64,000 nt of DNA, taken from assembly GCA_023250195.1 (NCBI GenBank), contig JAHFBF010000007.1:1128-65127 (forward strand), read 5' to 3'. Positions 3,266-62,482 of this stretch are shown here, piece by piece. A program made the position numbers and the translations under genes. How positions within the stretch are numbered: the stretch's first letter is position 1; each line of letters starts with the position of its first letter. The notes below the pieces were generated by a model, which was given only the letters and a program-made list of their open reading frames with translations, did no database searches and had not been told where the DNA came from. The stretch is from Candidatus Melainabacteria bacterium (lineage in GTDB: Bacteria > Cyanobacteriota > Vampirovibrionia > 2-02-FULL-35-15).

Positions 3266-4315
3266 ATGTTAAGCAGTTACAATTTATTTGATCTTGAAAC
3301 ATATAACTATTCTCTTCCAAAAGAGCTAATTGCACAATATCCCTGTGAGAAACGTGATGAGTCTCGGTTACTTTGTTACAAAAGGGATAGGAATAAAATA
3401 TCACACCACAAATTTTATGAGCTTTCAGATATGCTTGGTGAAAATGATGTACTTGTTCTAAACAATACAAAGGTATTGCCTGCTAGATTTTACGCAAAGA
3501 CAAAAGAAGATAAAGAAGTCGAGATATTACTTGTAAATTCCATAAGTCCAGACAATCTAACCTGGAAAGTTTTGGCAAGTCCAAGAAAGCATTTAAAAGG
3601 TCTAGAGATGTTGCATGCAAAGTCTCTAGCACCAATTAACGTCATAGATCCTGACACAATTAAATTTAATTCTCACAACGATCTTGAATTAATCTTAAAT
3701 CAAATTGGTACAATGCCTCTTCCTCCTTACATTAAAAGAAAATCAGAGAACATAGACATTGATCGTTATCAAACAGTCTTTGCAAAAGAGTCAGGTGCTG
3801 TCGCTGCTCCAACTGCTGCATTACATTTTACAGAAGAACTTTTAAACAAAATAAAAAATCAGGGAACTGAAATCTTATACATTACACTGCATGTAGGACC
3901 CGGTACCTTTCTCCCAATAAGAACCGATGATATTAGAGAACACAAATTAATCCCCGAAAGATTCCATATAGAAGAAGAAGTCTGGAATAAAATCCTCAAA
4001 GCTAAAAAAAATAAAAAAAGAATAGTTGCCTGCGGCACGACAACGGTTAGAACAATTGAATATGTGGCATTGGCAGAGACATGCGGCCGTATGTCTCTGC
4101 AAGGATCAAACAATCTTTATATTAAACCAGGTTTTAAATTTCAAATTGTTGATTCATTAATTACAAATTTTCATTTGCCTAAAACATCACTGCTGGTATT
4201 AATAAGCGCTTTTATTGGCTGGGAAAGTGTTAAAAGGATTTACGAAGATGCCATTAAAGAAAAATACAGATTTTTTAGTTATGGAGATGCAATGTTTATC
4301 AATAAAGAACATTAA
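3266..4315 (+). CDS. queA: S-adenosylmethionine:tRNA ribosyltransferase-isomerase
   Basis: LPKELIAQYP, NNTKVLPAR, MPLPPYIKR, RYQTVFA, AVAAPTA, LHVGPGTF, TNFHLPK and YRFFSYGDAM motifs. Confidence 0.98.
   Translation: MLSSYNLFDLETYNYSLPKELIAQYPCEKRDESRLLCYKRDRNKISHHKFYELSDMLGENDVLVLNNTKVLPARFYAKTKEDKEVEILLVNSISPDNLTWKVLASPRKHLKGLEMLHAKSLAPINVIDPDTIKFNSHNDLELILNQIGTMPLPPYIKRKSENIDIDRYQTVFAKESGAVAAPTAALHFTEELLNKIKNQGTEILYITLHVGPGTFLPIRTDDIREHKLIPERFHIEEEVWNKILKAKKNKKRIVACGTTTVRTIEYVALAETCGRMSLQGSNNLYIKPGFKFQIVDSLITNFHLPKTSLLVLISAFIGWESVKRIYEDAIKEKYRFFSYGDAMFINKEH
3602..3629. repeat. Degenerate GTAG-type palindrome inside queA
   Basis: CTAGAGATGTTGCATGCAAAGTCTCTAG, read as LEMLHAKSL; same TTGCATGCAA core as the copies at 43063 and 44946. 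Confidence 0.75.
4073..4100. repeat. GTAG-type palindrome inside queA
   Basis: GCAGAGACATGCGGCCGTATGTCTCTGC, read as AETCGRMSL; GC-rich island in an AT-rich gene. Confidence 0.75.
4258..4299 (+). repeat. queA 3' end, direct repeat copy 1 (42 bp)
   Basis: Matches 6862-6903 at 40/42 positions. Confidence 0.9.
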
Positions 4316-4402
4316 TTAGAATCAAATAAAATCTTAAGTTAATAGCTTCTTAATTTCTTATTTGTATATTTAGGACAAAAGTCCTTTTCAATAAACATAC
4401 AA

Positions 4403-12193: not shown

Positions 12194-13165
12194 ATGAAAA
12201 GTATTAAAGATAAAAAGTTATTAATCTATGGCACTGGTGCTGTCGGTGGGTATTATGGTGGTGCACTGGTTAAAGCCGGATATGATGTTACTTTCGTGGC
12301 ACGTGGAAAAACTTATGCGGTATTAAGAGAAAATGGATTAACTTTAATTACAGACGGTAAAAAAGAAATAATACCTATCAATGTAAATGCAATTCATGAA
12401 TTACCTCAACAGGAGAGATTTGATTACATTTTTATCTGTGTAAAATCAAAAGATACAAAAGTTGCCGCAGAACAAATTAAAAATAATGTAGGTCCGAGTA
12501 CAAGTGTTTTATCATTTCAAAATGGTGTAGATAATGAAGAAATTATTGGGGGAATTGTTGGGATTGATAAAGTTATCGGAGCAAATGTATATGTAGCTTC
12601 AATGCAAATGGAACCTGGAGTAATTGACCAGTTTGGATATAATGCAGTTGTAATTGGAGAGTTAGATCGAAAGCAATCAAAAAGGGTCTCAGAGCTAAAA
12701 AATATCCTTGAATCAGCAGGAATTTTATGTACTATTCCGGCAGATATCATGGCTGAACTCTGGAATAAGCTCGTTTGGAATGCATCATTTAACCCGGTAA
12801 GTGTTGTAACAGGAGAAACTGTAGATAAGATTTTAGAAAACAAGGAATTATTTGAACTTGTAAGAAACATTATGATAGAGGTAAGAGATGTCGCTATTGC
12901 ACATGGAATTAATATAAGAAAAGACACTGTTGAATTTAATTTAGAAAGATCAAAAGGAGTTAATAAAAGAACTATGGATGGAGCTCAGAATTTTATTGGT
13001 TTTAAAACCTCTATGCTTCAGGATTTTGAAAGAGGCAAACCACTGGAAATAGAAGAGCTGGCAGGCGTAGTAATTAGAAAAGCTAAAGAGAAGAATATCC
13101 CTGTACCAAATATTAAAAAAGTTTATAATGAAGTCAAACAAAAGACGATCAAAACAAAAGTCTAA
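12194..13165 (+). CDS. panE: 2-dehydropantoate 2-reductase (ApbA/PanE family), copy 2
   Basis: GTGAVG, CVKS, SFQNG, WNKLVWN and TSMLQD motifs; tandem paralogue of copy 1. Confidence 0.9.
   Translation: MKSIKDKKLLIYGTGAVGGYYGGALVKAGYDVTFVARGKTYAVLRENGLTLITDGKKEIIPINVNAIHELPQQERFDYIFICVKSKDTKVAAEQIKNNVGPSTSVLSFQNGVDNEEIIGGIVGIDKVIGANVYVASMQMEPGVIDQFGYNAVVIGELDRKQSKRVSELKNILESAGILCTIPADIMAELWNKLVWNASFNPVSVVTGETVDKILENKELFELVRNIMIEVRDVAIAHGINIRKDTVEFNLERSKGVNKRTMDGAQNFIGFKTSMLQDFERGKPLEIEELAGVVIRKAKEKNIPVPNIKKVYNEVKQKTIKTKV
12383..12410. repeat. Degenerate GTAG-type palindrome inside panE copy 2
   Basis: GTAAATGCAATTCATGAATTACCTCAAC, read as VNAIHELPQ; absent from the aligned region of panE copy 1. 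Confidence 0.6.
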
Positions 13166-16233: not shown

Positions 16234-17067
16234 ATGAACATTTTAGAAGAAATCATTGCTTACAAAAAAACTGAAATAGAAAAATCTAAAGAGAATTTAC
16301 CTCTTGATAAATTAAAAAATTTGATCAGTAGAGACGCGGTTAACCGCGTCTCTACCATACAATTTGCACAAGCATTAAAAGACAAGATCGATAAAAAACA
16401 AATCGCTTTAATCACAGAAATTAAAAAAGCCTCTCCTTCAAAAGGCATAATTAGAGCTGATTTTAATCATCTGGAAATAGCAAAGTCATATAAATCAGGT
16501 GGTGCAACATGTTTATCAGTACTTACTGATGAAAAATATTTCCAAGGAAATCTTAAATATATTTCAGAAATTAAAAATGTCTGTGATTTGCCCGTGCTCA
16601 GAAAAGATTTTATAGTAGATTCTTATCAGATCTACGAATCAATTCATAATCAGACTGATTGTATTTTATTAATTGTCGGGGCATTAGACAAGAATCAATT
16701 AAAAGAATTATTTGAATTATCATGTGAGATTGGAATTGATACGCTAATCGAGATCCATAACGAAAGAGAGATGGAGATTGCGTTAGACATTGTAGGGTCA
16801 GGTCGCGACCTGACCCTACTGGGGATAAACAATCGAAACCTTAAAACCTTTGAAACAGATTTACAAGTAACAATAAATTTGGCGGGGAAATATAAAAAGG
16901 ATTTACAAAATAAAATTATCGTCAGTGAATCAGGAATATTTACGAATGAAGATATTAAATCATTAATAGAACATAATGTTTATGCATTCCTGGTGGGAGA
17001 AAGTTTAATGAGAGAAGAAGATATCGAAATAGCTACAAAGAAATTAATTGGTTCTATTTCTTTATAA
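16234..17067 (+). CDS. trpC: Indole-3-glycerol phosphate synthase
   Basis: EIKKASPSKG, LSVLTD, LRKDF, GINNRNL and SESGI motifs. Confidence 0.97.
   Translation: MNILEEIIAYKKTEIEKSKENLPLDKLKNLISRDAVNRVSTIQFAQALKDKIDKKQIALITEIKKASPSKGIIRADFNHLEIAKSYKSGGATCLSVLTDEKYFQGNLKYISEIKNVCDLPVLRKDFIVDSYQIYESIHNQTDCILLIVGALDKNQLKELFELSCEIGIDTLIEIHNEREMEIALDIVGSGRDLTLLGINNRNLKTFETDLQVTINLAGKYKKDLQNKIIVSESGIFTNEDIKSLIEHNVYAFLVGESLMREEDIEIATKKLIGSISL
16328..16355. repeat. Perfect 28 bp GTAG palindrome inside trpC
   Basis: GTAGAGACGCGGTTAACCGCGTCTCTAC, read as SRDAVNRVST. Confidence 0.92.
16792..16819. repeat. Perfect 28 bp GTAG palindrome inside trpC
   Basis: GTAGGGTCAGGTCGCGACCTGACCCTAC, read as VGSGRDLTL immediately before the LGINNRNL motif. 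Confidence 0.92.
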
Positions 17068-24180: not shown

Positions 24181-24212
24181 CTGTAGGTACGTAGCATGCT
24201 ACGTACCTACAG
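24181..24212. repeat. Perfect 32 bp GTAG palindrome overlapping the purQ stop codon
   Basis: CTGTAGGTACGTAGCATGCTACGTACCTACAG; near-identical to 62455-62482; lies between convergent genes. Confidence 0.92.
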
Positions 24213-42724: not shown

Positions 42725-44311
42725 TTATATGCCCTGTAGAGACTTGCCATGAGTCTCTACAGCAGCAAAACATTTCTCCATTGAATTAATCAATCCTTCT
42801 TCCGTAAATGGTTCTGCAATTATATCTACTCTTCCAAACAAATCTCGTGCTATTTTTGAGGTTTCATCACCAATTACGGCAAACAAAGGTTTACTGCGGC
42901 AAGCCTCTACAAGACTATGTTTTTCAATCAATTTATAAAAATGCTTACAGGTATTTGGACTAAACAATGTAATCACATCTAGACCCTCTTTAACTTGATT
43001 TATAATTTCTTGATCTAATTGTTCTATGAAATTGGCCTTGTAGATTCCCCAGGTTGTTATCTGTTGAGACGTTGCATGCAACGTCTCTCCTACTTGGGTT
43101 GGATATAAAATCTTTTTATCTTGTAGACTTGTTCTTTCGCTTAATTCATTTATTAAATCTTCAAAGGAAAATCTTTTTGGTATAAAATCAGCTTTTATAT
43201 TATATTTTTCCAGTTCAAGTTTTGTTTTATATCCTACTGCTGCGATTTGAGATTTAAATAATGCTCTTGAATCATAACAATTTTTTTCTAAGATTTCAAA
43301 GAAAAACTTTACTGCATTTTGACTGGTAAAAAACATCCAGTCAAAGGATGATAAATTATTAATTATATTTTTATTGTATACTTCTTTGTCATTCAACTCA
43401 TAGCTGACTATAGGACAGTTTATCGGCTTAGCGCCTAGTTTGATAAGTTTTGAAGCAAATGAGAAAGACTGCTCTTTTTCTCTTGTAATTAAAACTCTTT
43501 TCCCAAACAATGCTTTTGATTCAAACCAGTTTAATACTTCTCTAAAGTTTACAACTTCTCCTATAATAATTACTGAAGGAGCTTTTATTTTGTTTTTTTC
43601 AATATCCTCAACTACTTCCCCAAGCTTTGATGTAATTGTAATTTGTTTACTTGTTGTCCCCCAGTAAATAATTGCTACTGGAGTATCTTTTGATCTCCCC
43701 AATGAAATAAGTTTACTGGCAATTTTTGGAAGATTTTTTACTCCCATTAAAAGCACAAGTGTACTTTTTGTTGCATCAAAATCATTCCAGTTTATAGAAC
43801 AATCCGGACTGTCAGGATCTTCATGTGCAGTAAGAACAGTAAATGAACTTGTACAATCCCTGTGTGTAAGGGGTATTCCTGCATAAGCAGGAACAGCAGT
43901 AACGCTTGAAACTCCCGGAATAATTTCAAAGTTTATATTATGCTCTTTTAAGAAAACAGCTTCCTCTCCACCACGCCCAAATATATTTGGATCTCCACCT
44001 TTTAAGCGACAAATTATTTTGTACTCTTTAGAGAATTCAAGCAGAAGTTTATTTATCTGCTCCTGACTGATTGATTTTTCATGCTCACCGCCGGCTTTTC
44101 CAACATAAATAAGCAAGGGGTTACTGCGGTAAGGTCCTTCAGTGTTTTTATTGATCGATACTGCATATTCTAAAATTTCTTTTGAAACCAGGCTGTCATA
44201 TACAATAACATCTGCTTTTTCAATTATTTCTTTGGCCTTTACAGTTAAAAGATCCGGATCTCCCGGACCTGCTCCGGTAATATAAATTGTAGATTCAACC
44301 TTATTCTTCAT
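42725..44311 (-). CDS. cobA: Uroporphyrinogen-III C-methyltransferase / uroporphyrinogen-III synthase fusion (CobA-HemD)
   Basis: GAGPGDPDLLT and RLKGGDP.IFGRGGEE, followed by VLITRE, FTSQNAV and AVGYKT. Confidence 0.93.
   Translation of the reverse strand: MKNKVESTIYITGAGPGDPDLLTVKAKEIIEKADVIVYDSLVSKEILEYAVSINKNTEGPYRSNPLLIYVGKAGGEHEKSISQEQINKLLLEFSKEYKIICRLKGGDPNIFGRGGEEAVFLKEHNINFEIIPGVSSVTAVPAYAGIPLTHRDCTSSFTVLTAHEDPDSPDCSINWNDFDATKSTLVLLMGVKNLPKIASKLISLGRSKDTPVAIIYWGTTSKQITITSKLGEVVEDIEKNKIKAPSVIIIGEVVNFREVLNWFESKALFGKRVLITREKEQSFSFASKLIKLGAKPINCPIVSYELNDKEVYNKNIINNLSSFDWMFFTSQNAVKFFFEILEKNCYDSRALFKSQIAAVGYKTKLELEKYNIKADFIPKRFSFEDLINELSERTSLQDKKILYPTQVGETLHATSQQITTWGIYKANFIEQLDQEIINQVKEGLDVITLFSPNTCKHFYKLIEKHSLVEACRSKPLFAVIGDETSKIARDLFGRVDIIAEPFTEEGLINSMEKCFAAVETHGKSLQGI
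42736..42760. repeat. GTAG palindrome at the cobA/hemD 3' end
   Basis: GTAGAGACTTGCCATGAGTCTCTAC, read as VETHGKSL. Confidence 0.85.
42883..42910. repeat. Degenerate GTAG palindrome in cobA/hemD
   Basis: Minus strand GTAGAGGCTTGCCGCAGTAAACCTTTGT, read as VEACRSKPL. Confidence 0.65.
43063..43093. repeat. GTAG palindrome in cobA/hemD
   Basis: GAGACGTTGCATGCAACGTCTC core, read as VGETLHATSQ. Confidence 0.85.
44113..44140. repeat. Degenerate palindrome in cobA
   Basis: GCAAGGGGTTACTGCGGTAAGGTCCTTC, read as EGPYRSNPL in an apparent insertion before YVGK. Confidence 0.55.
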
Positions 44312-44323: not shown

Positions 44324-45316
44324 TCACACGCCCATAGAGACCCCGCGATTAGGCATCTCTATAAAGATTTCCTGAAGAATCTCTTTAGCCCCCATTTGTA
44401 ATAACGTTTTTGCAAGATTTTCTCCAACCAGTTTACATTCATTTATTTTTAAATTACCAGTATTTTTATCTTTTATATTTTTTTTTCCATCTAGACTTGC
44501 AACCAATCCATATAAAATAATTTGTCCATCTTTAATTTCAGAATAAGCCCCAATTGGTACCTGACAGCCCCCCTGTAAAATTTCTAAAAAAGCCCTCTCT
44601 GCCATTGAAGCTAAATAAGTTTCATTATGATTTAACTTTGAAACTATATTTTCAATATTTTTATCATCCTGTCTAATTTCAATTGCTAAAGCTCCTTGAC
44701 CAACTGCCGGCAAAATATCTTTCGGGTTAAAGTGTTCTGTAATTTTATCCTCAAGTCCAAGTCTTTTGACACCAGCATATGCAAGAATTATTGCATCATA
44801 GCTTCCTTCTTCAAGTTTTCTAATTCTTGTATCAAGATTTCCTCTTAAATCTAAATATTCCAAATCATTTCTTAAAGCTTTCAGCTGTGCAATTCTTCGC
44901 AAGCTTGAGGTACCGATTTTTGATTTTGCTGGCAATGTAACAAACGTAGAAGCGTTGCATGCAACGCTTCTACCGACAATCAACACATCATGGGGTTTTT
45001 CTCTCTTTAAAACTGCACCAAGCTTTAATCCATCAGGTAATTTCGTCGGTAAATCCTTTAAACTATGCACTGCTAAGTCAATTTCTTTTGCTAACAAAGC
45101 ATCTTCAATTTCCCTGGTAAAAAGTCCCTTATCACCAATCTTTGAAAGGGCTACATCTGTAATATGATCACCTTTTGTTTTTATTTCTTTTAAAACAATT
45201 TCCGGTAGTAGCAAACCAGTGTGTTTGCTTAGTTTTAAGAGCTCGTCTCTTATATAATTTGCTTGCCAGATAGCAAGCTTACTGGAGCGAGTGCCAATTG
45301 TAAGTTTATAACCCAA
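44324..45316 (-). CDS. hemC: Hydroxymethylbilane synthase
   Basis: GTRSSKLA.WQ, KGLFT, VHSLKD, GTSSLRR, RGNLDTR and GGCQVP motifs. Confidence 0.97.
   Translation of the reverse strand: MGYKLTIGTRSSKLAIWQANYIRDELLKLSKHTGLLLPEIVLKEIKTKGDHITDVALSKIGDKGLFTREIEDALLAKEIDLAVHSLKDLPTKLPDGLKLGAVLKREKPHDVLIVGRSVACNASTFVTLPAKSKIGTSSLRRIAQLKALRNDLEYLDLRGNLDTRIRKLEEGSYDAIILAYAGVKRLGLEDKITEHFNPKDILPAVGQGALAIEIRQDDKNIENIVSKLNHNETYLASMAERAFLEILQGGCQVPIGAYSEIKDGQIILYGLVASLDGKKNIKDKNTGNLKINECKLVGENLAKTLLQMGAKEILQEIFIEMPNRGVSMGV
44334..44362. repeat. Degenerate GTAG palindrome at the hemC 3' end
   Basis: ATAGAGACCCCGCGATTAGGCATCTCTAT, read as IEMPNRGVSM. Confidence 0.6.
44946..44973. repeat. Perfect 28 bp GTAG palindrome inside hemC
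   Basis: GTAGAAGCGTTGCATGCAACGCTTCTAC, read as GRSVACNAST. Confidence 0.92.
45205..45233. repeat. Degenerate GTAG palindrome in the hemC N-terminal region
   Basis: GTAGTAGCAAACCAGTGTGTTTGCTTAGT, read as LSKHTGLLL. Confidence 0.5.
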
Positions 45317-51861: not shown

Positions 51862-51864
51862 ACT

Positions 51865-51893
51865 GTTGAGGCAGGTTTTAAACCTGCCTTTAC
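51865..51893. repeat. Intergenic GTAG-type palindrome
   Basis: GTTGAGGCAGGTTTTAAACCTGCCTTTAC. Confidence 0.75.
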
Positions 51894-51903
51894 AAAGGCT
51901 CCT

Positions 51904-53061: not shown

Positions 53062-53083
53062 CTGTATAATTTTAGCAAAATCA

Positions 53084-53172: not shown

Positions 53173-53181
53173 CATCACCTT

Positions 53182-53223
53182 TTCATGCTTCATGCTTCAT
53201 GCTTCATGCTTCATGCTTCATGC
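53182..53223. repeat. (TTCATGC)x6 heptamer tandem repeat overlapping the lipA stop codon
   Basis: Six perfect units; the same unit occurs x2 at about 27832-27848 over the coaBC stop codon. Confidence 0.92.
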
Positions 53224-54096: not shown

Positions 54097-54118
54097 AGGT
54101 GATTATAATAACATTGCT

Positions 54119-54156
54119 ATTGCTTCGTCAGTCTTTCGGACTTCCTCACGATGACG
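54119..54156 (-). repeat. Half CGTC-type element overlapping the flippase stop codon
   Basis: Minus strand CGTCATCGTGAGGAAGTCCGAAAGACTGACGAAGCAAT. Confidence 0.7.
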
Positions 54157-55618
54157 TCCCCCTAAAAATTTTAATGACTAAATCTTTATCATCTTTACTG
54201 AATACCCTCATAATAAATAGAAACAAGAAATAGCTTAACAAAAGAAAAGATATTTGAAGAAATAGATTTGTTTTGTTTGTCAAAAGGCTGTAAGTCAACC
54301 ACAGAGCTGTCAAACCAGCAATTATTGGTTTAAAACTCATAAAGAAAACATCTTTCAAATTCCATACTAAATATTTTGTACCTAAACCAATAATTATTAT
54401 TAAGAGCAACCCTTCGCTAACTACTGTAGCAATACTTGCTCCAAGAACAGAGTGTTTTGGTATTAGAACTAGATTTAAAATAAGATTTACAATACTGCTT
54501 ACAGCTTGAAAATAAACCATACTTTTATGCTTATGCATTGCAATATAAAATAAGTTAAATGGTGTTTGAATAAATCTAAAGTAAATAAACAAGCTAAATA
54601 ACTGTACAAGAGGAATGGACAAATCATATTTCCTGCCAAATATTAAGTGGATAATAGAACCGGAAAACAAAAATATGGAAATTACAAATGGTGTAGCAAA
54701 AATCACCATATATTTAAAGATAATTTTAAAGACTCTTTTTTGATTTTCTGATTCTTTTATCTTATCGTCTTCCAGTATTCTGTAAATTGTAGGCAAAAGA
54801 GCAAACCTGACCTGGTTAGGAAATAGATTTGCAACATTTGTAAATTTTATTGCCGCGCTAAAAATACCGACAGCATGTAAATTAGAAAAAATTGAAAGCA
54901 ATACCGTGCTGATTTTTGCATAAATCCCTACAAAAAAATCACTCAAGCTAAATATTGTTGAATCTTTAAAAAAATCCTTTACAAGTTCTAATTTTAATTT
55001 TGGTTTTAGAAGTAAAACTGAATTTATTAAAGAAACAATAAAAATAATTATATTCAAAAGTACACTTGCAAGTGCAAGATATAAAACCGAGTTATTGATT
55101 GAAAGAGCAATTATAACTATTACAAGATTAATTGTCGTTTTAAGTATTCTAAAGAAAGAAACAAGTTTAAAATCTCCTAGAATTCTTCTTATGCTGCTAA
55201 AGATACTTCCATAGCTTTCAAGCACCATGGTCAATGTAAATAATTCAAAGATTACAATTTCACTATTTCTATATCCTGCCAGATATCCAACAAAAGTAAC
55301 CAGAGCAAAAGTAGGAATAATAAGGATAGTTTTCAGGAATAAGGCATTTCCAAAACTAAACTGTGTATTAGAAATACTTGTAGAACCAAATTTTAATAAC
55401 GTTCTGTTTAAACCAAAATCACTTAAAAATTGAAATAGTCCCACGAAGGAAATGATTGTTGAATAAAGTCCAAAATTTTCAACTCCAAGCGCTCTGGCAA
55501 CAAAACCTATAAGAACTACATTTAAAGCAACAGTAACTCCTGAACTTGATAATAAGTAAAAAATTCCGAAAGTTAATTTTCTGGAAAGAGGGTCTTTTTT
55601 ACCGCCTTCCTCACTCAT
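54146..55618 (-). CDS. Wzx-type polysaccharide flippase
   Basis: ARALGVENFGLY, SDFGL, VGIFSAA and NLVLIP..GASIAT motifs; many TM segments. Confidence 0.9.
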   Translation of the reverse strand: MSEEGGKKDPLSRKLTFGIFYLLSSSGVTVALNVVLIGFVARALGVENFGLYSTIISFVGLFQFLSDFGLNRTLLKFGSTSISNTQFSFGNALFLKTILIIPTFALVTFVGYLAGYRNSEIVIFELFTLTMVLESYGSIFSSIRRILGDFKLVSFFRILKTTINLVIVIIALSINNSVLYLALASVLLNIIIFIVSLINSVLLLKPKLKLELVKDFFKDSTIFSLSDFFVGIYAKISTVLLSIFSNLHAVGIFSAAIKFTNVANLFPNQVRFALLPTIYRILEDDKIKESENQKRVFKIIFKYMVIFATPFVISIFLFSGSIIHLIFGRKYDLSIPLVQLFSLFIYFRFIQTPFNLFYIAMHKHKSMVYFQAVSSIVNLILNLVLIPKHSVLGASIATVVSEGLLLIIIIGLGTKYLVWNLKDVFFMSFKPIIAGLTALWLTYSLLTNKTNLFLQISFLLLSYFLFLFIMRVFSKDDKDLVIKIFRGTSS

Positions 55619-55752
55619 TCTTCGCTTGTCAGGCTTTGCATAGTGCATCTAAATAGCTTTCTATAACACTATTCAGATTTTACCGAATGAATTGAATAAA
55701 ATCTTACCTTATAAGAAGTTTACTGAGAAATGTTACATTATATAGGCAGCAA

Positions 55753-56088
55753 TTATTGTTCTTCTAATTTAGCAACTAACGCTATTTGGTTTATAACAAG
55801 CTCACTCAGTTCAGCCTCTGTCATTTTATTAAATCTGGACCAGACCGATCTTACCCATTGCAATTGAAAATAATTATGTTTAAAGTTAAAAACATTTGCA
55901 ATAAAATAATCAACTTCGGGATACAATCTGTAGTAATAAACAGCCGTTAAAATATCAGCTGAACAAAGAGCAGTAGGATAATAATCATTGTTTCTAACAG
56001 TTTTTTTACATTGAGCTACAAAATTTGTCAAAAGCTCAAATGAATTTATTGTTACTTCTTCACTTTGTACTGGGAATTCGTTTTCCAT
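55753..56088 (-). CDS. Hypothetical protein (111 aa)
   Basis: ORF preceded by a long structured leader. Confidence 0.65.
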   Translation of the reverse strand: MENEFPVQSEEVTINSFELLTNFVAQCKKTVRNNDYYPTALCSADILTAVYYYRLYPEVDYFIANVFNFKHNYFQLQWVRSVWSRFNKMTEAELSELVINQIALVAKLEEQ

Positions 56089-56089
56089 C

Positions 56090-56150
56090 TTTTATATATC
56101 GCTCCGCATTTTCAAGAAAATGCTCCGCTCTTAGCGGCTAATTCCTTTCA
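56090..56150 (-). repeat. Start-proximal hairpin repeat, copy of 49902-49939
   Basis: 30 bp exact match; preceded by GAAAGGAATT. Confidence 0.85.
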
Positions 56151-56209
56151 ACATTTCGGTTTTTCGTTTATAGAAAAACCTGCCTTTGGATGTTTCTTTT
56201 ACCCAATCT

Positions 56210-56236
56210 GATTTACCGGGTGAGCCGGACAAATCC
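56210..56236 (-). promoter_or_regulatory. Bulged-U hairpin motif, copy 3
   Basis: GGATTTG-T-CCGG-CTCAC-CCGG-TAAATC. Confidence 0.5.
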
Positions 56237-56359
56237 TTTTATCTTAAGAACGTCTGAATATATACATCTATAAAAAGGGAGTAAACCCATTATTTTGATA
56301 GAGAATTATTACCAAAAAACAGAGCAATATGTTAAATTTTTTTAATCTAGTCGCCTAAA

Positions 56360-57340
56360 TTGCCTATATTTGAGGAAAAGTCTAAAATTAGAGGAAATTT
56401 GAATAATCTACAGATAAAAAAACCAGTAATCATAATAGGCTGTCCCCGTTCGGGGACAAGTCTTTTATTCACCATATTAAGTGCAAGCAAACATCTCTGG
56501 TCTTTATACAGAGAAAGTAATGATATATGGGAAGATTTTTATAAATTCACAGGAAAAGAATTTAACAACGAAGTATTAACCCGTGAAGATTTAAATGAAG
56601 AATCTAAAGAATTTTTATTACAAGAATTTCATAAGTATTCTTTCAATAATTACTATATTGGGTATTTTATTAGAGAATATCTTCAAAAAAATAATTCCCT
56701 AAAAACTTTATCCGTTCCTATTACACAGGCAAATCTTTTATACAAAAAATTAATCGCACAGGAATACAGACTTATTGAAAAAACGCCTAAAAACTGTTTC
56801 AGAATTTCATTTATAAACAAATTATTTGATGATTGTAAATTTATTTTTTTAAAACGTGACGGCAGATCCAACATTAATTCTTTAATTGAAGGCTGGCTGG
56901 CAAATGGAAAATACCTAAGGATGAAGAACCCTTCTTTATCCTTAAATATAAAAGGATACAACGGAAAGGGTTGGAATTTTGTTATGCCTCCTGCCTGGGA
57001 AAACTATGCCAATAAGTCTTTAGAAGAAGTTTGTGCATTTCAGTGGATTAGTTCAAACAAAAAAGCTATTGAGGGACTGAAAGAAATTGAAGACAAGAGA
57101 AAACTTTCTATTTCATATGAAGAGCTTACAGAAAACACATCCACAACGATAAGAAAAATCTGTGATTTTATTGAAATCCCATTTGTACATAATCTAAAAG
57201 AAATCTCAGATGATCCACCAAGGGTAAATTACGTCACCAAACCACAAAGAGAAAAATGGAGAAAAAATTCTCATTTAATAGAAAATGTTTATCCGCAAAT
57301 TGAACCTATAATGAAGGAATTAGGATATTCTTTGTCTTAA
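56360..57340 (+). CDS. PAPS-dependent sulfotransferase family protein
   Basis: IIGCPRSGTSLL (5'-PSB), EKTPKN, RDGR...S (3'-PB) and SYEEL motifs. Confidence 0.88.
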   Translation: MPIFEEKSKIRGNLNNLQIKKPVIIIGCPRSGTSLLFTILSASKHLWSLYRESNDIWEDFYKFTGKEFNNEVLTREDLNEESKEFLLQEFHKYSFNNYYIGYFIREYLQKNNSLKTLSVPITQANLLYKKLIAQEYRLIEKTPKNCFRISFINKLFDDCKFIFLKRDGRSNINSLIEGWLANGKYLRMKNPSLSLNIKGYNGKGWNFVMPPAWENYANKSLEEVCAFQWISSNKKAIEGLKEIEDKRKLSISYEELTENTSTTIRKICDFIEIPFVHNLKEISDDPPRVNYVTKPQREKWRKNSHLIENVYPQIEPIMKELGYSLS

Positions 57341-58111
57341 GATTTCAAACAATATAACGCCAAACGCTACCGATACATTTAATGAATCAACTTTATCACT
57401 AATAGGAATCTTTGCCAGAAAATCACAGTTCTTTTTTATAAGTTCTCCAAGTCCTTCATGTTCGTTGCCTACTATAATCGCAACTTGCTCCGGAAAATCA
57501 ATTTCATAGACAGATTTAGAAGTTTCTGAATTGGCTGTTCCAACTATCCAAAAATTATTTTTTTTCAACTCATTGATTACATTTATACAATTTGTAACCC
57601 TTGCAAAGTTGGCATGAAACAGGGCTCCAGCACTGGTTTTTATAGTAGTTGCGTTAATGCCGATATTTTTTCTTCCAGTTAAAATCACCCCATTCCCTTT
57701 ACCCGCTATAAATGTTCTGATCATTGCGCCAATATTATGCGCATCTTCAATTTCATGTGCTACGAGAATAATTTTTGATGAACTTACTGATTCATGAATG
57801 ACTTCACTTACAGATTTATACTTAATAGGAGATATACTTAAAACCATTCCCTGATGATTTTTGGTTTTTGTTAAAGAAAATATTTTTTCTTCCGGAACCA
57901 TATAAAAAGGGATTCTCTTTTCTTTAGCATAAGAAATAACTCTTTGTTTTATATCATTGTCTTTAAGAGTTTCGCTCAGCCATATTTTGTTAACCTGAAG
58001 AGAAGAGTTTTCAATTACTTCAAGGACAGGATTTTTTCCAAACACTAACTCGTGGTTCGTGACTTGTAAATCATGAGCCATAGGATTATTGTTTTCCTTT
58101 CTTTTCATCAT
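57320..58111 (-). CDS. rlmB: 23S rRNA (G2251-2'-O)-methyltransferase, TrmH family
   Basis: FGKNPV, HQG, DAHNIGAMIRT, GNEHEG and SLNVSVA motifs. Confidence 0.9.
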   Translation of the reverse strand: MMKRKENNNPMAHDLQVTNHELVFGKNPVLEVIENSSLQVNKIWLSETLKDNDIKQRVISYAKEKRIPFYMVPEEKIFSLTKTKNHQGMVLSISPIKYKSVSEVIHESVSSSKIILVAHEIEDAHNIGAMIRTFIAGKGNGVILTGRKNIGINATTIKTSAGALFHANFARVTNCINVINELKKNNFWIVGTANSETSKSVYEIDFPEQVAIIVGNEHEGLGELIKKNCDFLAKIPISDKVDSLNVSVAFGVILFEILRQRIS

Positions 58112-58117
58112 GAAAGT

Positions 58118-60499
58118 TTAAAGTCCATTTTCGTTTTCATCATCAGAATTTTCATCTTGTGAATCGTCTTGTGAATCTTCCTCTGACTCTATTCTTAAAA
58201 ATCTTGAGTCTTTCCTTCTCCTGATCTCTGCCCTGCTTTCAGGTCTCTTCTGTTCTATTCCCTGCATTCTGTCTCTTTCTTCAGCAGGAGTCGGTGGTTC
58301 ATCAATCAAATCTCCCTGTTTTTGTGAATCCGGGTTTAATTCAATAACTTCTCCATCATTTGCAAATCCTTCTCTGTTGTTTTTTTCACCACGTTCTCCC
58401 AAATCATCATTTGTTTCAATTTTATTCTGATCGGTAATTTCTTTTTTATGCTCTTTGTCGTCATCCAGCTTAAACTCTTTTTCTAAAAATTTATTTTTAT
58501 TTAGAAATGGTCCATATAAAAATCTTACCAATGGTCTGAATCTTGCAGCCCCGGGAGGCACAGGAGCATATTCCTCAGGTTCAGTACCAGGCACAAATAA
58601 TTTTTTTACAGGGTTTGAAGTATATTGCGTGGCTAAAAGTCCTGTAAGAGGATCTATAAGAACTATTTTCATATTTACTTCATTAGAGAATTTCCCGGGA
58701 ATAACCTCTTTGTCTTCATAATATGCTTCACAAAATCTTTTCCATACCTTTGCAACAATTGCACCACCGGTTACCCATTTACTGTTTATGGCTGTATTGT
58801 GATCGTTGCCACCCCATATTGCTACAGAAAGATCTGGAGTAAACCCAATAAACCATACATCCCTTGATTTGTCTGATGTACCGGTTTTACCTGCCACAGG
58901 CCTGTCCTTAAGTTTTGCTAGTGTTCCCGTTCCTCTTTTCACTACATCCTCCAGCACACTAACCAGAGTAGCTGCAGCATAAGCAGATACAACCCTCTGC
59001 GGAACAGGTATATTTTTTTCAATTATCCTTTTCTTTGGATCTTCAATTTTTCTAATTAATATTGGCTTTATGTAAATGCCACCTCTTGCAAACGTAGCAT
59101 AGCTACTAGCAGCCTCAAGAGGTGTAATTGCAGCACTTCCTAATGCAAGTGAGAGATGAGGTTCAAGCACAGTTTCAATACCACATGCCTTGGCAGTTTC
59201 TATAATTTTTTCAATTCCAACTTTATAAGCTACTTTTACTGCAGGTAGATTCCTGGAAAATGTTAATGCATCTCTCACAGTAAGAGTACCCCAGAATTGT
59301 CCATCAAAGTTTTTTGGAGTCCATGTCATTCCAGTTCCGTCTACAATTTCAAACTTTGAATCTTTAATTGTTGTTTCAAGATCAATTACTCCCTGTTCAA
59401 ACGCAGTCAGGTAAACAAATGGTTTAAATGCCGAACCAATTGTGTGAGGATTTGTAGCTCTGTTCCACTGATTTTTCCAGAAATCACCAACACCGCCTAC
59501 AAGTGCTCTAATCTGTGAAGTCTTTACATCAATTGCAACAAGTGCATACTGCGTTACCCCGCTTGGAGCAGTTTTTATTTCATCATTTAAAATCTTTTCT
59601 GCTTTTTCCTGTGCTTCAGGATCCAAACTCGTAAAAACTTTATATCCCTTTTCTTTTAATTGTTCAACATTAAATCTAGTTTTCAACTCTTCAAAGACAT
59701 AGGAAAAATAATATGGGTACAATTCAAATTGTCCTGGAGAAGAGGAAAAAATTAGTTTCTCATTTATTGCTATTTTATATTGTTTCTGGGTTATATAACC
59801 AAATTCAAGCATTTTCTGAAGAACAAGTTTTTTTCTTTCTCCACCTGCTTTCTTGTTCATGGAAAGTGCACTTGGAGCTTTAAGTAGTCCTGCCAGGTAT
59901 GCAGCTTCTCCTAAAGTTAATTGAGTAACTTTTTTATTAAAATATCTTTGAGCAGCTCTCTGGGCACCGTATGCACGATTTCCCCAAAACACCTGATTTA
60001 AATATAGTCCCAGTATTTTATCCTTATTTAATTTTCTCTCCATTTCCAACGCAAGTAAAAGTTCTTTAAACTTACGTCCAAAAGTTCTCCCTCTTTCCTT
60101 TTCTGGAATTAAAAGATTTTTTACAAGTTGCTGTGTAAGAGTGCTGCCACCTTCAACTACTCTTCCAGCCTGAAGATTTACAAAAAATGCTCTTATAATT
60201 GCAACAGGATCTACACCAATATGTTCATAAAAATTTTTATCCTCTATTGCAAGTACTGCTCTTTTCAAAAATGGAGAGATTTCACTTAAAGGAACAACCT
60301 GCCTGTCTTCTTCTCCCTGTAAAAAGCCAACAAAATTATCTCTATAGTCAAAAAGCTCAATTGAGCTAATTGGTTCATATTCAGTCAGATTGTCAATTGG
60401 AGGAAATCCAAGAAATCTATTTATTGAAGGCAGGAAGATATAGCTGCCAAGAAAGACAGTTACTATAAATGGAAGGAGAAAAATATATTTATTCTGCAT
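58118..60499 (-). CDS. Class A penicillin-binding protein (PBP1A family)
   Basis: EDKNFYEH.G, GGSTLTQQL, RKFKE, GSAFKP, SRN and KTG motifs. Start adjusted to 60499. Confidence 0.95.
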   Translation of the reverse strand: MQNKYIFLLPFIVTVFLGSYIFLPSINRFLGFPPIDNLTEYEPISSIELFDYRDNFVGFLQGEEDRQVVPLSEISPFLKRAVLAIEDKNFYEHIGVDPVAIIRAFFVNLQAGRVVEGGSTLTQQLVKNLLIPEKERGRTFGRKFKELLLALEMERKLNKDKILGLYLNQVFWGNRAYGAQRAAQRYFNKKVTQLTLGEAAYLAGLLKAPSALSMNKKAGGERKKLVLQKMLEFGYITQKQYKIAINEKLIFSSSPGQFELYPYYFSYVFEELKTRFNVEQLKEKGYKVFTSLDPEAQEKAEKILNDEIKTAPSGVTQYALVAIDVKTSQIRALVGGVGDFWKNQWNRATNPHTIGSAFKPFVYLTAFEQGVIDLETTIKDSKFEIVDGTGMTWTPKNFDGQFWGTLTVRDALTFSRNLPAVKVAYKVGIEKIIETAKACGIETVLEPHLSLALGSAAITPLEAASSYATFARGGIYIKPILIRKIEDPKKRIIEKNIPVPQRVVSAYAAATLVSVLEDVVKRGTGTLAKLKDRPVAGKTGTSDKSRDVWFIGFTPDLSVAIWGGNDHNTAINSKWVTGGAIVAKVWKRFCEAYYEDKEVIPGKFSNEVNMKIVLIDPLTGLLATQYTSNPVKKLFVPGTEPEEYAPVPPGAARFRPLVRFLYGPFLNKNKFLEKEFKLDDDKEHKKEITDQNKIETNDDLGERGEKNNREGFANDGEVIELNPDSQKQGDLIDEPPTPAEERDRMQGIEQKRPESRAEIRRRKDSRFLRIESEEDSQDDSQDENSDDENENGL

Positions 60500-60500
60500 C

Positions 60501-60581
60501 TTTTTATATAGCTCCAGGCAAGCTGCCACCTTTAGCGAGCCTCGCCTTCGGTGAGGAGCTTCCTTCGGTCAATTCCTTTTC
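60501..60581 (-). repeat. Start-proximal repeat before PBP1A, related to the gmk leader
   Basis: GAAAAGGAATTGACCGAAGG...CAGCTTGCCTGGAGCTATATAAAAA versus gmk GAAAGGGATTGATCGAGGG...CAGCTTGTCTGGAGCTATATAAAAA. Confidence 0.75.
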
Positions 60582-60583
60582 AA

Positions 60584-60624
60584 AATAAAAAGCCAGCACC
60601 TAAAATAAGCACTGGCTTTTTATT
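60584..60624 (-). terminator. Rho-independent terminator after 60651-61121
   Basis: AAAAAGCCAG...CTGGCTTTTT stem followed by a U tract. Confidence 0.7.
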
Positions 60625-60650
60625 ATATCGTTCACTTGAAAAAAGTGCTT

Positions 60651-61121
60651 TTAGCTTGAGAAAGCTTTTGCAGCACCGTTTGCAGTCCACTCTATTGCAT
60701 CAGGAATACCCTGTAAAGCAGAATGTAAGGATTCACACTTGAATGGTTTTTCCCAACCAGTTACAAAACCTTTTCCACCCCAGAGAAGTCCGCCTACTGC
60801 GCCATGTACTGCTGCGCCAGGAGGTGCTCCAACTACCCAACCAACGAGAGTTTCAGTAGTTCCTTTTTTATCACCAAGTGCATCTGCAACAGCCTCTGCC
60901 CCTTTTGAAGCGCCACGAACTAAACCAGATGTTGTACCAACAAGAACTCCTGTTACAGTGCTAAGTGCAGCACCAACTAATTTGAATGGTAAACCAACTG
61001 TCCATCCAATAATTGGATTCACTTTTTTGCAACCTGAGCTTGCTTCATCTGCAAAAGCAATTGTTGGCATTAAAACTGAAATAACCAACGCAAGTGCAAG
61101 TAATTTTGATTTTTTTGACAT
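60651..61121 (-). CDS. Exported glycine-rich hypothetical protein
   Basis: Signal peptide (AFA cleavage), GGAG SD and a downstream terminator. Confidence 0.7.
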   Translation of the reverse strand: MSKKSKLLALALVISVLMPTIAFADEASSGCKKVNPIIGWTVGLPFKLVGAALSTVTGVLVGTTSGLVRGASKGAEAVADALGDKKGTTETLVGWVVGAPPGAAVHGAVGGLLWGGKGFVTGWEKPFKCESLHSALQGIPDAIEWTANGAAKAFSS

Positions 61122-61375
61122 TCTTTTTTTGCTCCTTATTCTAAATAATCTAGCCCTAAGTTGTTTATTAAATCAAGTTGAGCAAGTCTTGAACACCTTA
61201 TATTATGTATTTTTTACAAAATGTATGAGTATCTGGTCCTATAAAGTTCTAAAAATCTAACTTTGCTAATTTAATCTCTTACTTAGGGGAATAAATAGCA
61301 TTACATATTTTTATTAATTGGCTTTTTTGCCTGGTTTTTGAAAAACCCCTAAATCTATGCTAAACAAATATAACA

Positions 61376-62458
61376 ATGAATCCCTATAAACAATTTTTCT
61401 GTATATTTACTCTGATTTTTATATTTACTTTAGATTTTTCTTGGAATAAAGTTTTTTCACAAAACTCTTCGCCGGTTTTAAAAGGTGGGATTACTACCGT
61501 AATCCAAAAAGGTGAAGTTATAAATGTGAATTTAAATACACCGATCAATTTTTACTTCAGTCAGATTGGTGATAAGGTTGCCTTTTTTACAAATGAAGAT
61601 ACTGCCATTGGAGAGAATTCCTACATCCCAAAAGGAAGCAGAATTGAAGGAATAATTACAAATATAAAAGAACCAAAAGGATTTGGACAAAACGGATCTT
61701 TTGAAGTAAGTTTTAATGAAATTATTACACCAGAAAATATTTTTATTCCAATATCAGCCACAGCCAGTACTGACATTCAAAAAGCAAGTGCAAAAACTGC
61801 AGAAATTTTAAGTTATGATGCAGCATTGATTGCGTATGGAACTTTCCATGGATTTATAGCCGGGGTTCAATACGGAGGAATACCGCTTGCCATTTCAAGT
61901 CATGGAATTAGCTTATTAGCCGGGGCAGGTATAGGAGCAGGGGCAGGAATAATAGGTTCTGCAATTAGAAAAGGTAAAATACCAACTACTATTACAGGAA
62001 GCAGGACTCCTCTAATACTAAAAAGCGATTTGTTTATTTTAGGAGAACTCCCAAAGAAAGGAGATCAGAGATCAGAAATCAGAAATCAGAGAGAAGAATT
62101 TAAAGGTTTTAGATTTTTCCCGCAGCCAGGTAAAGATGAAATAGAACTTTCAATCCTTAAGATAAGAAAAAATAATAATAAAACTTTTGGAGATTACTTC
62201 ATTCTTGAAATCAGGATTAAAAATGATTCACAAAAAACAATTAATTTAACAGATGTAGTCCTAACGAAAAACAAAGATTCAAATTTGTTGCATGCTGATT
62301 TATTTTTAACAGGGATAAAAGCTCTTCAATCAATTAAACCATTCGAAGAATTAAGTACTTCATTAGCATTTGCAACTGAAGAAGAAATTGAAGATTATTC
62401 AATAACAATAATTGATCCCTTGGATGGGAATGAAATTATAACGATACCGTTAAAGTAG
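61376..62458 (+). CDS. Exported protein with TrbI/VirB10-like domain, glycine zipper and C-terminal Ig-like domain
   Basis: LKGG, IPKGSRIEGII, FEVSFNEI and GAGIGAGAG motifs; in-frame heptamer linker. Confidence 0.65.
   Translation: MNPYKQFFCIFTLIFIFTLDFSWNKVFSQNSSPVLKGGITTVIQKGEVINVNLNTPINFYFSQIGDKVAFFTNEDTAIGENSYIPKGSRIEGIITNIKEPKGFGQNGSFEVSFNEIITPENIFIPISATASTDIQKASAKTAEILSYDAALIAYGTFHGFIAGVQYGGIPLAISSHGISLLAGAGIGAGAGIIGSAIRKGKIPTTITGSRTPLILKSDLFILGELPKKGDQRSEIRNQREEFKGFRFFPQPGKDEIELSILKIRKNNNKTFGDYFILEIRIKNDSQKTINLTDVVLTKNKDSNLLHADLFLTGIKALQSIKPFEELSTSLAFATEEEIEDYSITIIDPLDGNEIITIPLK
62063..62090. repeat. (RATCAGA)x4 heptamer array in a coding linker
   Basis: Read as DQRSEIRNQR. Confidence 0.75.
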
Positions 62459-62482
62459 GTACGTAGCGTGCTACGTACCTAG
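62455..62482. repeat. GTAG palindrome supplying the stop codon of 61376-62458
   Basis: GTAGGTACGTAGCGTGCTACGTACCTAG, near-identical to 24183-24210. Confidence 0.9.

What the first reader, a model, noticed from the sequence alone, without database searches (positions are those of the whole stretch)
3602..62482. Dense set of GTAG...CTAC palindromes translated inside essential enzymes
Seen: about 17 GC-rich 25-31 bp palindromes with GTAG-like ends but several different cores. Locations are queA x2, panE2, trpC x2, cobA/hemD x4, hemC x3, the aldolase, purQ stop, ORF 62458 stop, one intergenic copy and a weak one at about 51611. Three internal copies are perfect 28-mers. Established: GTAG-tagged REPs are associated with RAYT (HUH) transposases and are normally extragenic; coding palindromes are best known from Rickettsia RPEs. 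Inference: here most copies are coding. Since 28 is not a multiple of 3, frame must be rescued by local deletion. Internal copies use the two open frames, and in two genes the element supplies the TAG stop. The range from perfect to eroded copies suggests ongoing peptide-loop creation.
Basis: partly seen in the sequence, partly recalled or inferred. Interest (0 to 1): 0.75.

Follow-up and report, generated by a model that had tools for sequence, protein, structure and literature searches.

The report
Double-foot REP palindromes inside genes
The window is dotted with 28-base DNA palindromes of an already described kind of selfish bacterial repeat tied to a small transposase, many of them tolerated and translated inside housekeeping genes, so this is a clear new example and not a new phenomenon.

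Summary
The genome (2.2 Mb, an uncultured groundwater Melainabacteria by earlier scan notes) carries at least 121 GTAG...CTAC palindromes, sharply 28 bp long. I confirm 12 in the window, not about 17. Genome-wide, 60 lie wholly inside ORFs, always in the two stop-free frames, and 17 give a TAG stop. Codon shuffling removes them.

They are the "double-foot" REPs of TnpA-REP/RAYT subclass 2.4 (Quentin et al. 2018). REPs inside genes, and REPs that give stop codons, were described by Di Nocera et al. 2013. The genome has three RAYT-like genes. The two of the main clade each carry one such palindrome in frame between the HuH and Tyr motifs, a published hallmark. Elements and RAYT co-occur across relatives and across Cyanobacteriota.

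This scan has filed the same thing on other DNA (24 earlier findings).

Details that I did not find in print:
- A filled site is never 27-30 nt longer than an empty one. Host sequence is overwritten (net -3 to +27 nt, +15 in 5 of 19 sites).
- Orthologous sites in different genera hold different, still palindromic cores.
- The symmetry is at DNA level, not mRNA level.

Verdict: new member of a known kind. Transposase-driven spread is inferred, not shown.

The parts
3602..3629 (.). Eroded 28-bp element in queA (site 1), feet CTAG/CTAG, read in frame 0
   Evidence: 2 mismatched pairs. Intact or near-intact copies sit at the same codons in G001, G003 and G009. It aligns without a gap to T. maritima QueA, 1vky.
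4073..4100 (.). 28-bp element in queA (site 2), feet GCAG/CTGC, frame 0
   Evidence: 1 mismatched pair. G001, G003, G009 and G010 have 13 nt there, a net +15 nt.
12383..12410 (.). Eroded copy in the second panE paralogue
   Evidence: 4 mismatched pairs. G002, G003 and G010 hold palindromes at the same codons, with three different cores.
16328..16355 (.). Perfect 28-bp element in trpC (site 1), frame 1 (SRDAVNRVST)
   Evidence: Orthologous copies in G009 and G002, eroded in G001. The ssDNA hairpin is -13.6 kcal/mol.
16792..16819 (.). Perfect 28-bp element in trpC (site 2), frame 0 (VGSGRDLTL)
   Evidence: It stands where G001, G002, G009, G007 and 8 outgroups have 5 fewer codons. It is +5 aa against the solved IGPS 3tsm.
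24183..24210 (.). Perfect 28-bp element (32-bp palindrome with its flanks) between a subtilisin-like ORF and purQ. Its inner CTA (24199-24201) is purQ's stop.
   Evidence: The same core occurs 4 times in the genome.
42736..42760 (.). 25-bp deletion form at the 3' end of cobA/hemD and the called 5' end of hemB
   Evidence: The HemB family match starts at residue 23 of the called ORF.
42883..42910 (.). Eroded copy in cobA/hemD (site B)
   Evidence: 6 mismatched pairs. G002 has a near-perfect element at the same codons; G001 and G009 have eroded ones.
43063..43090 (.). 28-bp element in cobA/hemD (site A), feet GTTG/CTCC
   Evidence: 2 mismatched pairs. All six genomes compared hold a palindrome or a remnant here, with differing cores.
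44946..44973 (.). Perfect 28-bp element in hemC, frame 1 (GRSVACNAST)
   Evidence: G001, G003 and G009 have 13 nt there, a net +15. It is +5 aa against E. coli PBGD 1ah5.
51865..51893 (.). 29-bp type, intergenic, feet GTTG/TTAC. Its core is that of the element inside the intact RAYT gene.
   Evidence: The RAYT copy at C5:196227-196255 is.
62455..62482 (.). 28-bp element whose first TAG (62456-62458) is the stop of ORF 61376-62458
   Evidence: 2 mismatched pairs.

Best explanation
These are 'double-foot' GTAG REPs: short hairpin-forming repeats with GTAG at the 5' end and CTAC at the 3' end. They belong with REP-associated tyrosine transposases (TnpA-REP/RAYT) of subclass 2.4, also called RAYT group 4.

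Shown:
- The repeat family, its sharp length, and the covariation of its two arms.
- Its restriction to one Melainabacteria family among the class relatives searched, and its abundance in many photosynthetic cyanobacteria.
- Its co-occurrence with RAYT genes, of which the main-clade copies carry one element in frame.
- Its placement in ORFs only in the two stop-free frames.

Inferred:
- The RAYT binds the hairpin in single-stranded DNA, cuts at the feet, and thereby copies or moves elements.
- New copies land anywhere. Selection removes those that break a frame or hit a structured part of a protein. The survivors are intergenic copies, copies whose TAG ends a gene, and in-frame copies read as about 10 extra or replaced residues (VExxxxxxL or xRDxxxxxST).
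- Entry overwrites host bases and is not a clean 28-bp addition.
- The copies are passengers, not adaptations.
For: Family.
- 121 copies, 98 of them exactly 28 bp.
- 50 perfect 28-mers with GTAG/CTAC feet, 38 of them distinct.
- Core pairs 5-14 are paired in 91.5% of cells, against 46.9% (maximum 50.8%) in 500 arm shuffles, with 3-4 Watson-Crick pair types at each position.
- Perfect copies fold as 12-bp ssDNA hairpins of -10.6 to -13.6 kcal/mol.

RAYT.
- Pfam Y1_Tnp scores 36.0 and 42.6 bits against a cut-off of 23.
- NCBIfam REP_Tyr_transpos is the best hit but falls under its cut-off: 60.8 and 72.1 bits against 80.
- The motifs MPNH[IVL]HGI or MPDHIHGI, WQ and YIxNNP are present. They fit Quentin's subclass 2.4: NH[IFV]H, WQ, YIxNNP.
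- 10 of 13 RAYT copies fetched from 8 genomes hold one GTAG...CTAC element between HuH and Tyr, 4 in frame 0 and 6 in frame 1.

Co-occurrence.
- In family f1, element counts with RAYT found are 100, 32, 29, 26, 25, 15, 61 and 68. Counts with none found are 6, 28, 1 and 2.
- 29 genomes of other families of the class have 0-5 hits, which equals the control; 1 of them has the RAYT.
- Phylum sample of 201 genomes: 20 of 30 element-rich genomes have the RAYT, against 25 of the other 171. This is not corrected for kinship.

Selection filter.
- Frames of the in-ORF copies are 33, 27 and 0.
- 17 of 121 give a stop with their terminal TAG.
- 60 of 121 lie in ORFs although ORFs cover 88.8% of the DNA.
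- Inserts appear as gaps against solved TrpC and HemC sequences.

DNA level, not mRNA level.
- Mismatches read in mRNA sense are G-U 14 and A-C 13.
- The perfect fraction is the same in ORFs (29 of 60), between genes (15 of 31) and at gene ends (13 of 30).

Print: Quentin 2018 and Di Nocera 2013 (passages read).
Against: - No transposition was seen.
- The metagenome contigs laid on the window listed no filled/empty polymorphism at the elements. Contigs cannot exclude one.
- There is no target-site duplication, and no filled site is 27-30 nt longer than an empty one. A simple cut-and-paste of a 28-bp unit does not predict this.
- G006 has 28 pattern hits (control 6), 6 of them perfect. G004 has 6 hits, 4 of them perfect. 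Neither shows a Y1 gene. These genomes are 95% and 94% complete.
- 10 of 30 element-rich genomes of the phylum gave no match to this RAYT.
- The RAYT copy that holds the major 28-bp core (C2:133782-134309) has an in-frame TGA. The intact copy holds the minor 29-bp type.
- No intact REPs flank the RAYT genes within 1.5 kb, apart from one degenerate copy about 70 nt upstream of the C5 gene.
Confidence: 0.85

Rival explanations
1. RAYT-independent origin and upkeep. The palindromes arise and stay symmetric through hairpin-templated strand switching or mismatch correction during replication (quasi-palindrome correction). The RAYT is a fellow traveller that merely tolerates one in its gene.
For: - Perfect copies exist in G004 (4 of 6 hits) and G006 (6 perfect among 28 hits) although no Y1 gene was found there.
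- In 16 orthologous pairs, 42 stem pairs changed on both sides in a complementary way, against 34 one-sided changes.
- Two sites were overwritten with zero net length change.
- At trpC site 3 the left arm in G010 nearly equals the native VGAL codons of the empty orthologues.
- Tandem runs of single arms occur in G001 and G010.
Against: - Strand switching does not explain the constant GTAG/CTAC feet, the sharp 28-bp length or the shared core consensus.
- It does not explain the co-occurrence with RAYT or the element kept in the same loop of RAYT genes only about 50% identical to each other.
- Solitary foot words are not in excess: 258 against 359 for reversed control words.
- The pair counts are conditioned on both copies being palindromic, so they lean toward this reading.
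Confidence: 0.1
2. The palindromes are functional host signals, such as protein-binding sites, terminators, mRNA stabilisers or recombination sites, kept by selection at each place.
For: - 17 copies sit exactly at gene ends and 31 lie between genes.
- REPs in E. coli have been assigned such roles. I saw this only in the abstracts listed.
Against: - Half lie inside ORFs at all positions along the gene; the deciles hold 8, 5, 9, 8, 6, 4, 6, 3, 4 and 7 copies.
- There is no G-U over A-C preference in mRNA sense.
- Presence at a given site is patchy among close relatives.
- Sister genomes have 1-6 hits.
Confidence: 0.04
3. Chance or codon-usage artefact: the palindromes follow from composition and amino-acid content.
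For: None beyond the weak candidates, which are indeed at chance level.
Against: - 200 palindromes against 15 in shuffled DNA.
- Codon shuffling removes all in-ORF copies.
- The reversed-pattern control gives 3 hits against 100.
Confidence: 0.01

Closest known systems
'Double-foot' REP sequences of TnpA-REP subclass 2.4 (RAYT group 4): Quentin, Siguier, Chandler, Fichant 2018, BMC Genomics 19:475, PMC6006769 (passages read)
   Same: - 5' GT[AG]G and 3' C[TC]AC feet on one hairpin.
- Cognate transposase with NH[IFV]H, WQ and YIxNNP motifs.
- A REP copy inside the tnpA-REP gene, in frame, between HuH and Tyr.
- Cyanobacteria as a main host group.
   Different: - The host is a non-photosynthetic Melainabacteria family.
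- No intact REPs flank the transposase genes.
- Some copies have DH instead of NH in the HuH motif.
- The paper's Figures S6 and S10 and its tables were not seen, so I cannot say how close the sequences are.
GTAG-tagged REPs: Di Nocera, De Gregorio, Rocco 2013, BMC Genomics 14:522, PMC3733652 (passages read)
   Same: - GTAG tag.
- Termini that supply the TAG stop of flanking ORFs.
- Units lying wholly within ORFs of known proteins.
- Presence in cyanobacteria.
- Proposed RAYT mobilisation.
   Different: - Their families carry an unpaired GTAG at one end only. Here the tag is paired and present at both ends.
- Their intragenic lists (Additional file 3) were not seen.
REPINs and RAYTs: Bertels and Rainey 2011, PLoS Genet 7:e1002132, PMC3116915 (passages read)
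   Same: - A non-autonomous, hairpin-forming repeat population tied to a low-copy Y1 transposase.
- Vertical persistence, with sequence diversity around common types.
   Different: - REPINs are two inverted REPs with a spacer, and they are extragenic.
- Here the unit is a single 28-bp palindrome without a spacer, and half the copies are in ORFs.
Rickettsia palindromic elements (RPE), as summarised in Di Nocera 2013
   Same: Palindromic repeats inserted in frame and translated inside housekeeping genes.
   Different: - Some RPEs (RPE-4, RPE-6) are filed there as CGTC-tagged REPs; others (RPE-1) as longer palindromic insertions.
- CGTC REPs have no dedicated transposase known.

Membership tests
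Double-foot REP of TnpA-REP subclass 2.4 | [quoted passage not shown] | tested here: met
   93 of 139 GC-rich 28-nt palindromes have GTAG/CTAC ends. 121 copies of 27-29 nt.
Double-foot REP of TnpA-REP subclass 2.4 | Stable hairpin in single-stranded DNA | tested here: met
   The four perfect window copies fold as a 12-bp stem with a 4-nt loop, -10.6 to -13.6 kcal/mol. None of 200 shuffles folds as well.
Double-foot REP of TnpA-REP subclass 2.4 | The genome encodes a subclass 2.4 transposase (HuH NH[IFV]H, WQ, Tyr motif YIxNNP) | tested here: met
   Motifs seen in the alignment of 13 copies. Pfam Y1_Tnp is over its cut-off. NCBIfam REP_Tyr_transpos is the best hit but under its cut-off, 60.8 and 72.1 against 80. 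No tree with reference subclass members was built.
Double-foot REP of TnpA-REP subclass 2.4 | REP inserted in frame inside tnpA-REP between HuH and Tyr | tested here: met
   10 of 13 copies hold one. The divergent own copy holds a different GC-rich hairpin.
Double-foot REP of TnpA-REP subclass 2.4 | REPs flank the tnpA-REP gene (REPtron) | tested here: not met
   Within 1.5 kb on each side there is only one degenerate 25-nt copy, upstream of the C5 gene, and one eroded copy in L004.
Double-foot REP of TnpA-REP subclass 2.4 | The transposase binds and cleaves the REP | not testable with these tools
   Needs purified protein and single-stranded oligonucleotides.
REPIN (REP doublet) | Two inverted REPs separated by a spacer, forming a long hairpin | tested here: not met
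   The unit is one uninterrupted 28-bp palindrome. Quentin 2018 notes that a double foot could come from a REP dimer by central deletion.
Rickettsia palindromic elements / CGTC REPs | CGTC tag (RPE-4, RPE-6) or a longer unit (RPE-1) | tested here: not met
   The tag here is GTAG and the length is 28 bp.

The most novel reading that the evidence does not exclude
Double-foot REPs do not enter DNA as a 28-bp insertion. They overwrite a patch of host sequence: net change -3 to +27 nt at 19 coding sites, +15 at 5 of them and 0 at 2. Once a site is occupied, its core can be exchanged for another core while the feet, the length and the reading frame stay fixed.

This would point to a RAYT-catalysed cut-and-replace (cassette exchange) at the feet, or to capture of excised hairpins as filler during gap repair, sometimes seeded by foot-like words already present in the target. 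It would make these elements a steady source of heritable variation in surface loops of core enzymes.
Probability: 0.2. Interest if true: 0.6.

Novelty: new member of a known kind. Interest (0 to 1): 0.3.

Why it matters
The finding extends a described repeat-transposase pair to non-photosynthetic relatives of cyanobacteria with small, gene-dense genomes. It also gives an unusually clean data set. Syntenic genomes of several genera carry filled, empty and swapped states at the same codons. That makes the open question of how REPs actually spread testable by comparison and by a simple enzyme assay.

For annotation, it explains odd 5-10-residue inserts (VExxxxxxL, xRDxxxxxST) and some TAG stops in otherwise conserved enzymes.

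Tried and rejected
- Structure mapping. Whether the inserts sit on surface loops was therefore not tested. I only have gaps against solved sequences.
- Sequencing runs. No RNA holder was listed. Contigs of four groundwater runs laid on 42600-62590 listed no indel at the elements among the rows shown, and unitigs tend to end at elements. Contigs cannot show rare alleles.
- Target-site duplication. Identical flanks of 2, 3 or 4 nt occur in 11, 1 and 3 of 93 copies, which is no signal.
- Half-element model. Solitary foot 8-mers number 258, against 359 reversed control words.
- A fixed '+15 rule'. It holds at 5 of 19 sites only.
- Homology of the empty 13-15 nt to either arm. None at trpC site 2, hemC or the G009 queA site. 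Read by eye, 8 of 14 at queA site 2 against G001 only.
- Weak window candidates at 2388, 44113, 44334, 45208 and 51611 are at chance level.
- tRNA scan of the window: none found.
- Elhai 2008 (small dispersed repeats of Nostoc) is not in the library. Any likeness to those repeats is recalled, not checked.
Full report
**What is in the window.** The DNA is 34% G+C and almost wholly coding. GTAG-N17-23-CTAC occurs 7 times, against a mean of 1.85 in 100 shuffles.

Palindrome scans give four perfect 28-mers, at 16328, 16792, 24183 and 44946. They give four near-perfect copies at 3602, 4073, 43063 and 62455, a 29-bp form at 51865 and a 25-bp deletion form at 42736. Eroded copies at 12383 and 42883 count only because relatives hold intact copies at the same codons. 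That makes 12 copies.

Five further candidates cannot be told from chance. At the loose settings needed to see them, 30 shuffles of the 3.7-kb hem stretch give 5-15 hits each, against 16 in the real stretch, the solid copies among them.

Family scans confirm QueA, two PanE, TrpC, PurQ, CobA/HemD and HemC. The purQ stop is the CTA at 24199-24201 inside the element. The stop of ORF 61376-62458 is the element's first TAG.

**The family in the genome.** The assembly has 2.21 Mb in 7 contigs. Earlier scan notes call it Melainabacteria.

- It holds 200 palindromes of 28 nt with at most 2 mismatched pairs, against 15 after shuffling. 93 of them have GTAG/CTAC ends and 63 are perfect.
- Among GTAG...CTAC palindromes with at most 3 mismatched pairs, 98 are 28 nt, 9 are 27 nt and 14 are 29 nt. 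Other lengths have 0-7 each.
- The arms covary. Pairs 5-14 show 3-4 Watson-Crick types each and are paired in 91.5% of cells, against 46.9% after dealing the right arms out anew (maximum 50.8% in 500 trials). There are 38 distinct perfect 28-mers.
- A consensus remains: GTAG-R-G-R-C-N-T-N-N-C-R and its complement.
- Perfect copies fold as 12-bp ssDNA hairpins.

**Where the copies sit.** I used a crude ORF map that covers 88.8% of the DNA.

- 60 of the 121 copies lie wholly in ORFs, 30 overlap an ORF end and 31 are intergenic. Copies are therefore depleted in genes but far from excluded.
- In-ORF copies use frame 0 (33 copies, typically V-E-A-L-H-A-T-P-L) or frame 1 (27 copies, x-R-D-V-A-x-N-V-S-T). 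None uses the TAG frame.
- 17 copies give a stop with a terminal TAG.
- Copies are spread over all deciles of their ORFs.
- Ten codon shuffles leave 34-37 of the 121, roughly the number in or reaching into unshuffled DNA between ORFs (31 intergenic).

**DNA or RNA.** In 20 imperfect in-ORF 28-mers read in mRNA sense, mismatches are G-U 14, A-C 13 and other 5. The perfect fraction is the same in ORFs (29 of 60), between genes (15 of 31) and at gene ends (13 of 30). The symmetry is a property of the DNA duplex, not of a selected mRNA hairpin.

**The transposase.** A Pfam Y1_Tnp search of the genome and a protein search find three genes:

- C5:196028-196555, intact, 176 aa.
- C2:133782-134309, with one in-frame TGA.
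- C2:155942-156412, divergent.

Pfam Y1_Tnp is over its cut-off. NCBIfam 'REP-associated tyrosine transposase' is the best hit but under its cut-off.

I aligned 13 copies from 8 genomes. They show MPNH[IVL]HGI or MPDHIHGI, WQ and YIxNNP. Ten of them hold exactly one GTAG...CTAC element of 27, 28 or 29 bp between the HuH and Tyr motifs. Cores differ from copy to copy, 4 are read in frame 0 and 6 in frame 1. No intact copies flank the genes.

**Distribution.** A 28-bp pattern gives 100 hits in this genome (control 3).

- Eleven genomes of the same family give 32, 29, 26, 6, 25, 28, 1, 15, 61, 68 and 2 hits, against controls of 1-6. Twenty-nine genomes of other families of the class give 0-5.
- The RAYT is found in 7 of those 11 genomes and in 1 of the 29. 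The four family genomes without it also lack any Y1_Tnp match.
- Two of those four still hold perfect copies: G004 has 4 among its 6 hits, and G006 has 6 perfect among its 28 hits.
- In a sample of 201 genomes of the phylum, the same 28-bp architecture is abundant in many photosynthetic lineages, up to 244 hits against a control of 13. It is at control level in 74 genomes of family f6.
- 20 of 30 element-rich genomes have the RAYT, against 25 of the other 171. The odds ratio is 11.7. Kin are not independent, so this overstates the link.

**What is in print.** Quentin et al. 2018 describe, for TnpA-REP subclass 2.4 (Bertels' RAYT group 4), REPs with 5' GT[AG]G and 3' C[TC]AC ('double foot'). 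They also describe REP insertions inside the tnpA-REP genes that keep the frame and lie between HuH and Tyr, mainly in Cyanobacteria and Bacteroidetes (passages read).

Di Nocera et al. 2013 report that GTAG REP termini often supply the stop of flanking ORFs and that REPs lie wholly within ORFs in several species (passages read). The kind is therefore known.

This scan had reached the same filing in 24 earlier findings on other genomes. I saw those notes after finding the papers.

**How copies differ between relatives.** The window is syntenic in five relatives. A 23-gene tree gives ((G000,G002),G001), then G009, then G003 and G010. I used codon alignments for the window, flank alignments against 0.74 Mb of G001 and three further 19-20-kb regions.

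(a) Lineage-specific gains exist. The copies at queA site 2 and hemC are found only in this genome. G009 and G010 have gains of their own.

(b) At 19 coding sites where palindrome-free orthologues agree, the net length change is:

- +15 at 5 sites: queA site 2, the G009 queA site, trpC site 2, hemC, and one site in region L129
- +24 at 3 sites
- 0 at 2 sites
- +3 at 2 sites
- +6 to +9 at 2 sites
- +27, +21, +18, +12 and -3 at one site each

It is never 27-30. One further site was dropped as ambiguous. Intergenic comparisons with G001 also give +24, +20, +12, +9 and +8, though those alignments are less sure. Host bases are therefore overwritten.

(c) Some empty sites already hold foot-like words. 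Examples are GTAGAGCTA where G010 gained an element, and GTTGGGGCGTTG at trpC site 3.

(d) Many sites are occupied in several genera. In 16 orthologous pairs in which both copies are palindromic, 42 stem pairs differ on both sides in a complementary way, 34 on one side, and 3 otherwise. Total differences fall into two groups, 1-7 and 9-21. Random pairs between G000 and G001 elements differ by 10.07 on average, sd 3.71. About half the pairs therefore look like descent in place, and half look like a different core at the same feet.

(e) Presence is patchy against the species tree. At trpC site 2, G000, G003, G004, G006 and G010 are filled, while G001, G002, G007, G009 and all 8 outgroups are native. 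G000's right arm matches those of G004 and G006. TrpC is only 72% identical between G000 and G001, against 82.6% over the 23 genes. Allele exchange may be involved.

**Solved structures.** Against solved sequences the inserts show as gaps: TrpC +4 and +5 residues (3tsm), HemC +5 (1ah5), QueA site 2 +2. QueA site 1 aligns without a gap to 1vky. A structure model could not be run.

**Reading.** With about 0.85 confidence, these are double-foot REPs of a subclass 2.4 RAYT in a new host lineage, tolerated in permissive parts of genes. That the RAYT spreads them is inferred from co-occurrence, from the element inside its gene and from the literature. It is not shown here.

Against a simple cut-and-paste stand the overwriting, the lack of duplications, the perfect copies in genomes where no RAYT was found, and a nonsense codon in the RAYT that holds the major core.

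The most novel reading still open is patch replacement with in-place core exchange. I give it 0.2.

Noticed in passing
G002:C37 hemC orthologue (L063/L064) and G010:C21 queA orthologue (L050), at the codons matching window 44946 and 3602: A different repeat, with about 72 extra bases in G002 hemC and read as VIARRLEESTKQSQ... or VIARSTEGATEQSRT, sits in frame at the same permissive loops where this genome has the 28-bp element. It may be the CGTC-type family that earlier notes report in this genome.
   Followed up: no
Own genome C1:134270-134340 and C2:155942-156412 (L001): A second REP type has a single GTAG foot followed by a GGGCAGA...TCTGCCC stem, twice in tandem. The divergent RAYT copy carries a similar GC-rich hairpin in its coding sequence.
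   Followed up: partly
Own genome C2:133782-134309 (L012): The RAYT copy that holds the commonest 28-bp core has one in-frame TGA where the other copies have Arg. It is probably a recent pseudogene.
   Followed up: partly
G001:C11 around 30620-30690; G001 queA site 1 (L056); G010 orthologue of L131 ORF 1209-2327: Tandem partial duplications of single arms: two or three copies of one arm next to a full element. They suggest slippage at the hairpins.
   Followed up: no
window 16234-17067 (trpC): TrpC is 72% identical to G001's, against 82.6% over 23 syntenic genes. Element presence at trpC site 2, and at region L130 ORF 1556-2971, conflicts with the species tree. This hints at allele exchange between related lineages.
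   Followed up: partly
window 47710-47755 and 55600-55662: Metagenome contigs pile up here, with word depth up to 938 in the bin against 50-100 nearby, and many loose ends. These look like short conserved or repeated sequences between genes. No tRNA was found.
   Followed up: no
window 2388-2417: A 30-bp GTAG...CTAC imperfect palindrome lies in a glycosyltransferase ORF. Its core is unlike the family's, so it is probably chance.
   Followed up: no
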